Shown: positions 19,738-24,733 of the stretch, one piece after another | Numbering within the stretch: the first letter of the stretch is position 1 | Layout: every line of letters starts with the position of its first letter | Source: Escherichia coli | Lineage (GTDB): Bacteria > Pseudomonadota > Gammaproteobacteria > Enterobacterales > Enterobacteriaceae | Strand: one strand, 5' to 3' | NCBI RefSeq assembly: GCF_003334305.1 | Contig: NZ_QOWS01000023.1 | DNA length: 64,000 nt | The notes under the pieces: generated by a model | Seen by the model: the letters and a program-made list of their open reading frames with translations, nothing else | What the model was told of the DNA's origin: nothing | Databases searched by the model: none | Program-made: the position numbers and the translations under genes

Positions 19738-21999
19738 TTACCCCAGACGCAAATTCTGCGCCGCCTGCACCATGTTCGCCAGTGCCGCGCGGGTTTCTGG
19801 CCAGCCGCGCGTTTTCAGGCCACAGTCTGGGTTGACCCACAGGCGCTCTGCCGGAATGCGTTTTGCCGCTTTCTTCAGCAGGGCTTCAATCCATTCCACG
19901 CTCGGTACGTTTGGCGAGTGAATGTCATAGACGCCTGGACCGATTTCATTCGGATAATCAAACTCTTCAAACGACTCCAGCAACTCCATGTCGGAACGCG
20001 AGGTTTCGATGGTGATGACGTCTGCATCCAGCGCCGCAATGGAATCCATGATGTCGTTGAACTCGCAATAACACATGTGAGTGTGGATTTGTGTGTCATC
20101 TTTCGCCACGGCGGCGTTGATACGGAAGGCCTCTACGCCCCACTGGAGATAGGCGTCCCAGTCGCTACGACGCAGTGGTAAACCTTCGCGCAGCGCCGGT
20201 TCGTCAATCTGGATGATACCAATCCCTGCCGCTTCCAGATCGGCCACCTCATCACGCAGCGCCAGCGCAATCTGTTTGGCGATGGTTTCACGGCTGACAT
20301 CTTCACGCGGGAACGACCAGCAGAGTATGGTCACCGGCCCCGTCAGCATCCCTTTCACCGGTTTGTCGGTCAGCGATTGCGCATACTTCGCCCACTCCAC
20401 GGTAATCGGTGCCGGGCGACTAACGTCACCAATAACAATCGGTGGCTTCACGCAGCGGGAACCGTAGCTCTGTACCCAACCGTTTTGCGTAAAGACAAAC
20501 CCGTCGAGGTGCTCGCCAAAGTATTCCACCATGTCATTACGCTCGGCCTCGCCATGTACCAGCACATCCAGTCCCAAACGTTCCTGTTCAACAATGGCCT
20601 GCCTGATATGTTCCGCAATGCCCGTGCGGTAGTTATTGGCGTCGAGATTGCCCTTTTTGAAATCCAGACGCAGGGTACGAATTTCCGTGGTTTGCGGGAA
20701 AGAACCAATCGTGGTGGTCGGCCACGCTGGCAGTTTAAAACGCGCACGCTGGGCTTCGGCACGCACTTCATAGACATTCGCACGCTGGCTGTCCTGGGCG
20801 GTGATCGCCGCCAGACGCTTTTCTACCGCCGGATTATGTACGCGGGTAGAGTGACGACGTGCCTGAATCGGGGCGCTCCACTCTGCCAGAGCTGCCGTGT
20901 CACCACTGTTCAGCGCATCGCGCAGCAGTGCCAGTTCATGGCATTTTTGTAGGGCGAAGGCAAACCAGCTTTTCACTTCTGCATCAAGACGCGTTTCCAC
21001 GCTCAGGTCGATGGGGCTGTGCAGCAACGAGCAGGAAGATGCCACCCACAAATCACGTTTGCCGACAATGTCCTTAATTTGCGCATATTTCTCGGTAAGA
21101 TCGGCGCGCCAGACGTTACGACCATTGATCAGACCCGCAGACAGCAACCAGTCAGAAGGCAGGCGCTTGTGCAGTTCAGCAACGTCATCTTTACCATGTA
21201 CGAGGTCAACATGCAGACCCTGAACAGGCAGCGCAGTAATCGTGTCGAGATTTGGCGTTACGCCTTCAAAATAGGTGGTCAGCAGCAGTTTCACCTGTCC
21301 CTGGAGCGCGTCGTAAGCGGGTTTGTATGCGTCCAGCCACGCCTGTGGTAGTTCCAGTACCAGCGCGGGTTCATCAATCTGTACCCACTCGATGCCGCGT
21401 TTCGCCAGTTCTGCCAGCACTTGCTGATAAACCGGCAGAATGTCGTTCAGCAGGCTAAGGCGGTCAAACTGTTCACCTTTCACTTTCCCCAGCCACAGGT
21501 AAGTAACCGGCCCCAGCAGCACAGGCTTAACGTTGTGGCCCAGCGCCAGCGCCTCGTCCACTTCCTCCAGCAGCTGCGTCCAGGTCAGTTTGAACTGTTG
21601 GCCTTTAACGAATTCCGGCACCATGTAGTGATAGTTGGTGTTAAACCATTTGGTCATTTCCGCTGCCGCCGCAGGTTCGCCAGTCGGCGCACGTCCACGA
21701 CCAATACGGAACAGGGTGTCGATATCTACCGAACCGTCTTTGTTCTGATGACGTGGCGGAACATTACCCAGCAGCAGACTGGTGGTCAGAACATGATCGT
21801 ACCAGGCAAAATCGCCCACCGGCAGCAGGTCGATACCCGCTTGCTTTTGTTGATCCCAGTGACGAGCACGCAGTTCACGCCCTACTGTCAGCAGTTCTTC
21901 ACGCGTGGAGTTCCCCGCCCAATAACTTTCTTGCGCTTTTTTCAGCTCGCGACGCAGGCCAACGCGAGGGAAACCGAGGGTGTGATTAAGAATTGTCAT
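19738..21999 (-). CDS. metE: Cobalamin-independent methionine synthase, 753 aa
   Basis: Full-length ORF recognised as MetE. Confidence 0.96.
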
Positions 22000-22029
22000 T
22001 ATATGCCCCTTATGGAATTTTTAGTATTT

Positions 22030-22053
22030 AGCCGTCCAGATGTTTACACATCC
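22030..22053. promoter_or_regulatory. Candidate tandem MetJ boxes in the metE-metR divergent promoter region
   Basis: Tandem 8-mers AGCCGTCC-AGATGTTT-ACACATCC loosely matching the AGACGTCT met-box repeat; weak. Confidence 0.35.
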
Positions 22054-22116
22054 ATAATTGGCGGTTACTGTATATTCCTCAAGCGCAAATTATTCATGCC
22101 GAAGTGAAGGACTTTC

Positions 22117-23070
22117 ATGATCGAAGTAAAACACCTGAAAACGCTACAAGCGTTGCGGAACTGCGGCTCTCTCGCAGCCGCTGCGGCGACGTTGCATCAG
22201 ACGCAATCCGCCCTGTCTCACCAGTTTAGCGATCTGGAACAACGCCTTGGCTTCCGGCTATTTGTGCGTAAGAGCCAGCCGCTACGCTTTACACCGCAGG
22301 GAGAAATCCTGTTGCAACTGGCAAACCAGGTGCTGCCGCAAATTAGCCAGGCACTGCAAGCCTGCAATGAACCGCAGCAGACGCGTCTGCGCATTGCCAT
22401 TGAGTGCCATAGCTGTATTCAGTGGCTGACGCCCGCGTTAGAAAATTTCCATAAGAACTGGCCGCAGGTAGAGATGGATTTTAAATCGGGCGTGACGTTT
22501 GACCCGCAGCCCGCGTTGCAACAGGGCGAGCTGGATCTGGTGATGACCTCCGATATCCTGCCGCGCAGTGGCCTGCATTATTCGCCGATGTTCGACTATG
22601 AAGTGCGTCTGGTGTTAGCACCTGACCATCCACTGGCGGCGAAAACGCGAATTACACCGGAAGATCTCGCCAGCGAGACGCTGTTGATTTATCCGGTGCA
22701 GCGTAGTCGACTGGATGTCTGGCGGCATTTTCTTCAGCCGGCAGGCGTCAGCCCGTCACTGAAAAGCGTCGATAACACCTTATTGTTGATTCAGATGGTT
22801 GCCGCGCGGATGGGTATTGCCGCGCTACCGCATTGGGTAGTAGAGAGTTTTGAGCGCCAGGGTCTGGTGGTGACCAAAACCCTGGGCGAAGGCTTGTGGA
22901 GCCGACTGTACGCCGCCGTGCGCGATGGCGAGCAGCGTCAGCCAGTTACGGAAGCGTTTATTCGCTCAGCGCGCAATCACGCCTGCGATCATCTGCCGTT
23001 TGTGAAGAGCGCGGAGCGACCCACTTACGATGCACCCACAGTGAGGCCAGGATCACCAGCGCGCCTGTAA
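22117..23070 (+). CDS. metR: LysR-type regulator MetR, 317 aa
   Basis: Full-length ORF with N-terminal HTH; divergent from metE. Confidence 0.95.
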
Positions 23071-23932: not shown

Positions 23933-24733
23933 TTACGATAAATAGAGTTTACGCAGATAATGCGGCACCGCGTCGTCGGCATTAGTACCAATCACTTCCA
24001 GCTCGGGATGAAGGTCTTTCAGACGCTGGTGCGCACTGCCCATAATGCAGCCTTTCCCCGCCATCGACAGCATTTCGGCATCGTTCATCCCGTCACCAAA
24101 CGCAATACAATCCTTCAGGCTGTAGCCCAGTTTCTTCGCCACCGCTTCCAGCGCATGGCCTTTCGACACGCCGCCCGCCATCACTTCCAGACAGGTTAAG
24201 GTAGAGAAACTGACGTTGACGCGATCGCCCCAGCGAGCGTTAATCGCCTGCTCCAGCGGCAGCAGTTGTTCATGGGAATCGCAGGTGAAAAACACTTTGC
24301 TGACGCCTTCCGGCTCCAGTAATCCAGGCTCATACAGCGCATATTTGAACACCGCTTCTTTAAAAAAGCGCATCTCTTCCGGGCGATGGCGATTCATAAA
24401 CCATTCGTCGTCGCGATAAACGTTAGTAATGATGTCCGGATTGTCGTTGACTACGCCAAACAGATCGCTGGCAATGTCGCGATCCAGGTTATGAGCAAAA
24501 ATCAGATTACCATCCAGATCGTGAACGCGCGCACCATTGGAGGTAATCATGTAAGACTTAATCTCCAGATTATCGCGAATTTGCCCCACATCAACGTGGT
24601 GACGACCGGTCGCAAACACAAAGTTGATGCCGCGCGCGGTGAGCAGCTTCAGAGTTTCTTTGGCGTAAGGGGATAACGTATGGTCGGGAGAAAGTAACGT
24701 GCCATCTAAATCAGACGCAACAACCTGGTACAT
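23933..24733 (-). CDS. yigL: HAD-superfamily (Cof-like) sugar phosphatase YigL, 266 aa
   Basis: ORF track 23933-24859; start at internal ATG giving MYQVVASDLDGTLL... (HAD motif I DLDGTL). Confidence 0.88.
   Translation of the reverse strand: MYQVVASDLDGTLLSPDHTLSPYAKETLKLLTARGINFVFATGRHHVDVGQIRDNLEIKSYMITSNGARVHDLDGNLIFAHNLDRDIASDLFGVVNDNPDIITNVYRDDEWFMNRHRPEEMRFFKEAVFKYALYEPGLLEPEGVSKVFFTCDSHEQLLPLEQAINARWGDRVNVSFSTLTCLEVMAGGVSKGHALEAVAKKLGYSLKDCIAFGDGMNDAEMLSMAGKGCIMGSAHQRLKDLHPELEVIGTNADDAVPHYLRKLYLS

What the first reader, a model, noticed from the sequence alone, without database searches (positions are those of the whole stretch)
22105..22117. Perfect TGAA-N5-TTCA palindrome overlapping the metR ribosome-binding site and start codon
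TGAAGGACTTTCA ends at the A of the metR ATG and encloses its Shine-Dalgarno sequence (AAGGA). As I recall it, TGAA-N5-TTCA is the half-site arrangement for MetR itself, so this could be an autoregulatory operator placed to occlude translation or transcription initiation. It could also be chance.
Basis: partly seen in the sequence, partly recalled or inferred. Interest (0 to 1): 0.3.

Follow-up and report, generated by a model that had tools for sequence, protein, structure and literature searches.

The report
Known MetR operator at metR start
The palindrome is real and is the core of the already-described main binding site of the regulator MetR between the E. coli metE and metR genes, where MetR switches on metE and turns down its own gene, so it is an ordinary, known regulatory site rather than a new one.

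Summary
TGAAGGACTTTCA sits exactly at 22105..22117. It ends on the A of the metR ATG and encloses the AAGGA Shine-Dalgarno.

The pattern is not enriched in the window: 2 copies against 1.08 expected. Its position and conservation are not chance. It is perfect in 80 of 80 Enterobacteriaceae loci and varies only at one spacer base. It stays at the same place, with one or two arm changes, in Yersinia, Dickeya, Buchnera and two uncultured lineages (48-52% MetR identity).

It matches the published MetR consensus (TGAA-N5-TTCA; ATGAA-N5-TTCAT). It corresponds to the distal, better-conserved site IR1, placed in the literature at about -63 from the metE start. A degenerate partner, IR2 (22083..22097), lies 21 bp away at about -41, next to the metE -35.

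So this is the standard LysR-type arrangement of a recognition site plus an activation site in a divergent, overlapping promoter pair. MetR anchored here activates metE and represses metR transcription.

Translational occlusion is not supported, and the site's main job, metE activation, was missed.

Verdict: already known; low interest. The one less obvious point is that the operator/start-codon overlap is deeply conserved.

The parts
22105..22117 (.). Perfect 13-bp palindrome TGAAGGACTTTCA, the core of the distal MetR site (IR1, 'site 1')
   Evidence: Perfect in 80/80 Enterobacteriaceae loci. Consensus from the literature.
22104..22118 (.). 15-bp MetR box GTGAAGGACTTTCAT, matching 9 of the 10 specified positions of ATGAA-N5-TTCAT. 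Its last two bases are the A and T of the metR start codon.
   Evidence: score 9, centre -6 from the ATG.
22083..22097 (.). Proximal, degenerate MetR site IR2 ('site 2'). On the metE-sense strand it reads ATGAATAATTTGCGC: the metR-side arm is perfect and the arm next to the metE -35 is degenerate.
   Evidence: start-to-start spacing to IR1 is 21 bp in 81 sequences and 22 bp in Yersinia, Dickeya, Buchnera and L087. Column conservation. One search places IR2 at -41.
22107..22111 (+). metR Shine-Dalgarno AAGGA, lying in the left arm and spacer of the MetR box
   Evidence: Invariant columns.
22117..23070 (+). metR coding sequence (317 aa, LysR-type regulator)
   Evidence: RefSeq metR, WP_000573618.1. 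PDB 5FO5 is the MetR DNA-binding domain.
19738..21999 (-). metE coding sequence (753 aa), the divergent target gene
22054..22082 (-). Inferred metE promoter: -35 TTGAGG (22082..22077), 17-bp spacer, -10 AATTAT (22059..22054). The inferred start is about 22047..22049.
   Evidence: Relaxed hexamer scan. This places IR2 at -41/-42 and IR1 at -62/-63, matching. The start site itself was not measured here.
22043..22071 (+). Inferred metR promoter: -35 TTTACA (22043..22048), 17-bp spacer, -10 TACTGT (22066..22071). The inferred start is about 22078.
   Evidence: Both hexamers are nearly invariant. This is inference only; no start-site data were found.
22030..22053 (.). Three tandem MetJ met boxes (AGCCGTCC AGATGTTT ACACATCC). 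They overlap the metR -35 and the inferred metE start.
   Evidence: Predicted MetJ sites with these sequences are listed for metE in the supplement of PMC2760140. Shared met boxes for metE and metR are described.

Best explanation
The palindrome is the core of the distal, high-affinity MetR recognition site (IR1, 'site 1') of the divergent metE-metR control region of E. coli.

A MetR dimer binds the two TGAA/TTCA arms, centred at 22111. This is about 62-63 bp upstream of the metE transcription start.

A second MetR dimer occupies the weaker site IR2, centred at 22090, which is about -41 and abuts the metE -35 hexamer. With homocysteine as co-effector, the bound MetR helps RNA polymerase start at metE.

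The metE and metR promoters are back-to-back and overlap. Both MetR sites lie just downstream of the inferred metR start, at about +5..+19 and +26..+40. The same occupancy therefore lowers metR transcription, by steric hindrance or roadblock and by favouring polymerase at the competing metE promoter.

The metR Shine-Dalgarno and start codon happen to be written inside the operator. This is a DNA-level overlap, not a translational control device.

What is shown here: the sequence, the spacing, the conservation and the promoter-like hexamers. What is taken from the literature: the consensus, the two footprinted sites in Salmonella, the -63/-41 placement and autorepression. What is inferred: the exact start sites and the physical route of autorepression.
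For: The sequence is at the stated place.

Published MetR consensus is TGAA-N5-TTCA / TGAAnnTnnTTCA / ATGAA-N5-TTCAT.

Oliver et al. 2016 (PMC5002191) report two tandem MetR sites footprinted and mutated in S. typhimurium. In E. coli they place the distal, more conserved IR1 at -63 and the proximal IR2 at -41 from the metE start. They also note that the E. coli inter-site spacing is one base shorter than in other Gammaproteobacteria. I find exactly that: 21 bp in 81 Enterobacteriaceae sequences and 22 bp in Yersinia, Dickeya, Buchnera and L087.

Two Salmonella enterica loci (L050, L056) carry the identical 15-mer.

The best metE-direction hexamer pair gives a start at about 22047, which places the sites at -62/-63 and -41/-42.

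Conservation: the 81-bp region is at least 99% identical in 5126 of 5426 E. coli genomes. Columns 22104..22124 are invariant in 72 unique sequences, except the spacer base 22113 and 22114. The arm between the Shine-Dalgarno and the ATG is conserved, although translation does not require that.

The box stays at the same place in Buchnera (ATGAAGGAATCTCAT), L087 and L088.

Where metR is not next to metE (Vibrio sp., L089) there is no MetR box at metR. Where the spacer is 245 bp (L086) the box lies 91 bp from the metR ATG, towards the metE-side met boxes.

Autorepression of metR through overlapping promoters is stated.
Against: No binding or start-site data for this exact strain were available. 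The primary footprinting papers are not in the held library.

Oliver et al. state that two MetR sites have not been shown experimentally in the E. coli region.

The metE and metR start sites used here are inferred from hexamers and from the published -63/-41 figures, not measured.

Conservation of the left arm and spacer is confounded with the Shine-Dalgarno, and that of the last bases with the start codon.

The consensus promoter scan did not pick either inferred promoter. It found only a promoter-like match on the minus strand over the MetR sites.
Confidence: 0.9

Rival explanations
1. A dedicated autoregulatory operator. On this view the palindrome exists mainly to let MetR shut off its own gene and is not needed for metE activation.
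For: It overlaps the metR ribosome-binding site and start codon and lies in the inferred metR leader. metR is reported to be autorepressed. The overlap with the ATG is kept in several distant lineages.
Against: Its phasing is fixed with respect to IR2 and the metE -35 (21-22 bp). Its position at about -63 of metE is the canonical LysR recognition-site position. cites mutations in either Salmonella site lowering metE transcription. A Vibrio MetR-like gene that is not adjacent to metE has no such box. In L086 the box stays towards the metE side, 91 bp from the metR ATG.
Confidence: 0.05
2. Translational control. On this view the palindrome forms an mRNA hairpin that sequesters the Shine-Dalgarno and start codon, or MetR binds the mRNA there.
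For: The palindrome encloses the Shine-Dalgarno and ends in the start codon. The minimum-free-energy fold pairs GAAGU with ACUUU around the AAGGA.
Against: The leader fold is -8.3 kcal/mol against -8.17 +/- 2.28 for shuffles, z = -0.06, and 91 of 200 shuffles fold as well. The stem is only 4-5 pairs. Variants in relatives (TTCA to CTCA or TGCA) are not compensated on the other arm. MetR is a LysR-type DNA-binding protein (Pfam HTH_1 + LysR_substrate; PDB 5FO5).
Confidence: 0.02
3. Chance palindrome. On this view its conservation only reflects the need for a Shine-Dalgarno and a start codon.
For: Over the whole window the pattern is at chance level (2 against 1.08 expected). A second, meaningless copy sits in yigL. 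AAGGA and ATG account for 6 of the 13 bases (5 of AAGGA plus the A of the ATG).
Against: The arm in the Shine-Dalgarno-to-ATG spacer and the G/T before the left arm are also conserved, while bases just upstream (22099..22103) vary. There is a half-site partner at a fixed helical phase. The sequence matches a published, experimentally derived consensus at the published position. The expected number of perfect copies in a 117-bp region is about 0.002.
Confidence: 0.03

Closest known systems
MetR binding sites 1 and 2 of the Salmonella typhimurium metE-metR control region (Urbanowski & Stauffer 1989; Wu, Urbanowski & Stauffer 1995, as cited in PMC5002191)
   Same: Same genes and same divergent layout. 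The 15-mer is identical in the two Salmonella enterica loci examined (L050, L056). Two tandem sites have different quality, and both match the TGAAnnTnnTTCA consensus.
   Different: Nothing substantive. The footprints were made on Salmonella DNA, not on this E. coli strain. My recollection that site 1 spans -48 to -71 (which would be 22097..22120 here) could not be checked, because the papers are not held.
E. coli K-12 metR-metE IR1/IR2 predicted by phylogenetic footprinting (Oliver et al. 2016, PMC5002191) and the RegPrecise MetR motif (Leyn et al. 2014, PMC4239095)
   Same: The DNA from the met boxes to metR is identical in K-12 and in the window. IR1 at -63 and IR2 at -41, the 15-bp ATGAA-N5-TTCAT motif, and spacing one base shorter in E. 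coli.
   Different: The window strain has the short (117-bp) spacer, which lacks the repeat element present in the K-12 metE leader. This lies downstream of the metE start and does not touch the MetR sites.
GcvA sites in the divergent gcvA-gcvB region, and the general LysR-type recognition-site / activation-site layout
   Same: Two inverted repeats are centred near -65 and -43 of the activated promoter. The regulator gene is divergent and is repressed by the same binding. The palindrome also fits the generic LysR T-N11-A form (established knowledge).
   Different: A different regulator and a different half-site sequence. In metR the recognition site reaches into the regulator's own start codon, which is not a general feature of the family.
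MetR sites at glyA-hmp and metH
   Same: Same protein and same consensus. Tandem sites occur at glyA-hmp.
   Different: Different target promoters, outside this window. They were not examined here.

Membership tests
MetR operator (MetR box) | Match to the consensus TGAA-N5-TTCA (13 bp) or ATGAA-N5-TTCAT (15 bp) | tested here: met
   8/8 specified core positions and 9/10 of the 15-bp form.
MetR operator (MetR box) | Lies in the control region of a MetR-regulated gene | tested here: met
   It lies in the 117-bp spacer between metE and metR. Both genes are MetR targets.
MetR operator (MetR box) | Conserved in orthologous control regions | tested here: met
   80/80 Enterobacteriaceae loci are perfect. 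The box is at the same position, with 1-2 arm changes, in Yersinia, Dickeya, Buchnera, L087 and L088. 5426/5426 E. coli genomes hold the region at 95% identity or more.
MetR operator (MetR box) | Physically bound by MetR (footprint or EMSA) | not testable with these tools
   Reported for S. typhimurium, as summarised. The primary papers are not held.
LysR-type recognition site paired with an activation site | Distal strong site near -65 and proximal weak site near -40 of the activated promoter, on the same helical face | tested here: met
   The centres 22111 and 22090 are 21 bp apart. With the inferred metE start at 22047..22049 they lie at -62/-64 and -41/-43. The published values are -63 and -41. 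The start site is inferred, not measured.
LysR-type recognition site paired with an activation site | Regulator gene divergent from the target and repressed by the same binding | tested here: inconclusive
   The divergent layout is shown. Repression is taken from the literature. The metR start and the route of repression are inferred.
Translational operator / RBS-sequestering hairpin | RNA structure more stable than expected, supported by compensatory changes | tested here: not met
   z = -0.06. Arm changes in relatives are not compensated.

The most novel reading that the evidence does not exclude
The writing of metR's own Shine-Dalgarno and start codon inside MetR's primary operator may be a selected dual-use arrangement rather than a by-product of a short spacer. 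It is kept from E. coli to Buchnera and to lineages with only 48-52% MetR identity. It could give a roadblock at about +26..+40 of the metR transcript. It could also favour capture in cis of newly made MetR at the DNA that encodes its first codon, tightening autoregulation.
Probability: 0.1. Interest if true: 0.4.

Novelty: already known. Interest (0 to 1): 0.12.

Why it matters
It matters little as a discovery. It confirms that a tool-free reading of raw sequence correctly recognised a textbook regulator site, and it corrects the proposed mechanism.

The practical points are these. In this strain, as in K-12, the MetR and MetJ control core of metE-metR is intact. Anyone editing the metR ribosome-binding site or start codon will also be editing the main MetR operator for metE. 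The operator/start-codon overlap is unusually well conserved.

Tried and rejected
- **Primary papers.** I tried to read the footprinting, structure and RNA-polymerase papers (PMC176813, PMC210406, PMC287278, PMC4909240, PMC110999). None is held.
- **Literal sequence search.** Searching the literature for the 13-mer gave only unrelated primer hits.
- **Measured metE/metR start sites.** The supplements of Kim 2012, Cappable-seq and Mendoza-Vargas 2009, and Kröger 2012, gave nothing usable. Tables were cut, the gene was not listed, or the paper was not held. The start sites therefore remain inferred.
- **Leyn 2014 supplements.** They hold no site sequences.
- **Consensus promoter scan.** It did not recover either promoter.
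- **RNA hairpin idea.** Rejected.
- **Second palindrome in yigL.** Rejected as chance.
- **ERIC2 primer sequence.** Recalled from memory, it did not match the K-12 insert within 3 mismatches. The repeat nature of the insert was shown by a distant search instead.
- **More remote MetR relatives.** L090, L091 and L092 gave weak or differently placed boxes and were not used as support.

Full report
**Observation.** The window reads ...ccgaag TGAAGGACTTTCA tg atc... with the 13-mer at 22105..22117. Its last base is the A of the ATG that opens a 317-aa ORF at 22117..23070. AAGGA lies at 22107..22111, 5 nt before the ATG.

Over the whole window TGAA-N5-TTCA is not enriched. There are 2 copies against 1.08 expected, and 26 of 100 shuffles gave at least 2. 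The other copy (24009..24021) is inside the yigL coding sequence and is not kept in relatives. What is unusual is the place of this copy, not the count.

**Context.** The window is Escherichia coli. The 451 bases around the site match all 5426 complete E. coli genomes, under annotated metE and metR. In strain E2865 (100% identity) RefSeq annotates metE, metR, bioP and yigL at the corresponding coordinates. metE (19738..21999) is on the minus strand and metR on the plus strand, so the palindrome lies at the metR end of a 117-bp divergent spacer.

**What is known about MetR sites, from papers read here.**
- The MetR recognition sequence is given as TGAANNNNNTTCA for E. coli, Salmonella and Vibrio harveyi. 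It is also given as TGAAnnTnnTTCA and as a 15-bp ATGAA-N5-TTCAT motif conserved across Proteobacteria.
- Oliver et al. 2016 (PMC5002191) summarise that DNase I footprinting and mutations in S. typhimurium defined two tandem MetR sites of different affinity in the metE-metR region.
- They place, for E. coli, a distal, better-conserved IR1 at -63 and a proximal IR2 at -41 from the metE start.
- They remark that the E. coli spacing between the two sites is one base shorter than in other Gammaproteobacteria.
- They note that mutations in either site lower metE transcription.
- They and the Shewanella paper (PMC13393422) state that metE and metR have overlapping divergent promoters, so MetR activates metE while repressing its own gene. 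MetJ also represses both genes.

**Anatomy in the window.** The 15-mer GTGAAGGACTTTCAT (22104..22118) matches 9 of the 10 specified consensus positions. Twenty-one bases towards metE lies GCGCAAATTATTCAT (22083..22097). On the metE-sense strand this reads ATGAATAATTTGCGC, with one perfect arm and one degenerate arm, as expected for the weak proximal site.

The start-to-start spacing is 21 bp in the window and all 80 Enterobacteriaceae loci. It is 22 bp in Yersinia, Dickeya, Buchnera and the uncultured lineage L087. That is the one-base difference described in the literature, so these two sequences can be identified with the published IR1 and IR2.

A relaxed hexamer scan gives two promoter candidates:
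- In the metE direction: TTGAGG (22082..22077), 17 bp, AATTAT (22059..22054), with a start near 22047..22049. This puts IR2 at -41/-42 and IR1 at -62/-63.
- In the metR direction: TTTACA (22043..22048), 17 bp, TACTGT (22066..22071), with a start near 22078.

These starts are inferences. I found no measured start sites.

Three tandem met boxes (22030..22053) overlap the metR -35 and the inferred metE start. Matching MetJ site predictions are listed for metE in the supplement of PMC2760140.

From memory only, the Salmonella site-1 footprint is -48 to -71. That would be 22097..22120 here and would enclose the palindrome. I could not verify this.

**Conservation.**
- Within E. coli, the 81 bp around the site are at least 99% identical in 5126 genomes and at least 95% identical in all 5426.
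- Across 80 species-level Enterobacteriaceae genomes, including Salmonella, Citrobacter, Enterobacter, Kluyvera and Kosakonia, the palindrome is perfect in all. Seventy-four have T and 6 have A at the fifth spacer base.
- In 72 unique sequences, columns 22104..22124 are invariant except 22113 (spacer) and 22114 (T to C in Yersinia and Dickeya). The bases just upstream (22099..22103) and the promoter spacers vary.
- The conserved right arm lies between the Shine-Dalgarno and the ATG. Translation does not demand a particular sequence there, so the constraint is not only translational.

Further out, the best box in the spacer sits at exactly the same place, centred 6 bp before the A of the ATG, in these loci:
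- Yersinia (GTGAAGGACTCTCAT)
- Dickeya (same sequence)
- Buchnera aphidicola (ATGAAGGAATCTCAT; MetR 61% identical)
- L087 (ATGAGGGATCTGCAT; 52%)
- L088 (TTGAATATAATTCAT; 48%)

Exceptions are informative. In L086 (51%, 245-bp spacer with separate met boxes on each side) the box ATGAAAAAAATTCAA lies 91 bp from the metR ATG, towards the metE-side met boxes. In a Vibrio sp. MetR-like gene that is not adjacent to metE (L089) there is a MetJ box but no MetR box. The box therefore follows the metE promoter rather than metR as such.

**Mechanism.** The best-supported account is the standard LysR-type scheme.
- MetR binds the strong distal site, which is the palindrome.
- With homocysteine, MetR also occupies the weak proximal site that abuts the metE -35, and it activates metE.
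- The two promoters overlap back-to-back, and both sites lie just downstream of the inferred metR start. The same occupancy therefore represses metR.
- The literature supports the outcome, activation of metE and autorepression of metR.
- The physical route of autorepression (steric block, roadblock at about +26..+40, or competition by the activated metE promoter) is my inference.

**Rivals.** An RNA hairpin or other translational device is not supported. The leader folds at -8.3 kcal/mol against -8.17 +/- 2.28 for shuffles (z = -0.06), and arm changes in relatives are uncompensated. Pure chance is excluded by position, partner site and conservation. A purely autoregulatory operator is unlikely, given the fixed phase to IR2 and the metE -35 and the two exceptions above.

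**Comparison and novelty.** This is the known MetR site of the metE-metR control region, not a new member or variant. The suggestion of translational occlusion should be dropped, and the main role, anchoring metE activation, added.

The only point not spelled out in the papers I could read is how far the operator/start-codon overlap is conserved. That could reflect selection for a dual-use sequence, but it is as easily explained by a compact, slowly evolving control region.

**In passing.** The window strain has the short form of the metE leader. K-12 and about 39% of E. coli genomes carry about 120 extra bases, which belong to a dispersed repeat. Both forms recur in other genera.

Noticed in passing
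window 22000..22027 (metE leader); K-12 locus L002:218-453: The metE-metR spacer is 117 bp here but 237 bp in K-12 and ESY003. The short form is in 3325 of 5426 complete E. coli genomes and the long form in 2100. The extra K-12 segment is a dispersed repeat, with a median of 8 places per genome at 60-90% identity. From memory it looks like an ERIC/IRU element. Both forms also occur in other genera among L003-L082, so the polymorphism crosses species boundaries.
   Followed up: partly
window 21985..22010 (metE start and ribosome-binding site): The two leader forms also differ in the metE ribosome-binding region and in synonymous positions of codons 3-4 (ATT CTT here, ATA TTG in K-12). That is the stretch listed as the FnrS small-RNA target of K-12 metE in the supplement of PMC3415461. 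FnrS control of metE might therefore differ between the forms.
   Followed up: no
window 24009..24021: A second perfect TGAA-N5-TTCA (TGAAGGTCTTTCA) differs from the metR copy only at the centre base. It lies inside the yigL coding sequence and is not conserved in 80 relatives. It is a chance match.
   Followed up: yes
window 22958..23070: The 3' ends of metR (+) and bioP/yigM (-) overlap convergently by 113 bp, as annotated in RefSeq.
   Followed up: no
window 22089..22118, minus strand: The only hit of the consensus promoter scan is ATGAAA-18-AATAAT on the minus strand, lying over the two MetR sites. It is probably the A/T-rich MetR arms mimicking hexamers, but a MetR-occluded upstream promoter towards metE is not excluded.
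   Followed up: no
L085 1440..1503 (Buchnera aphidicola); L089 1333..1500 (Vibrio sp.): Buchnera keeps both MetR sites and the overlap with the metR ATG, despite 61% protein identity and an AT-rich spacer without obvious met boxes. A Vibrio sp. MetR-like gene away from metE has a MetJ box but no MetR box.
   Followed up: partly
E. coli genome collection (no window coordinate): One E. coli record carries a copy of the metE-metR region on a plasmid, and a few genomes have two copies.
   Followed up: no
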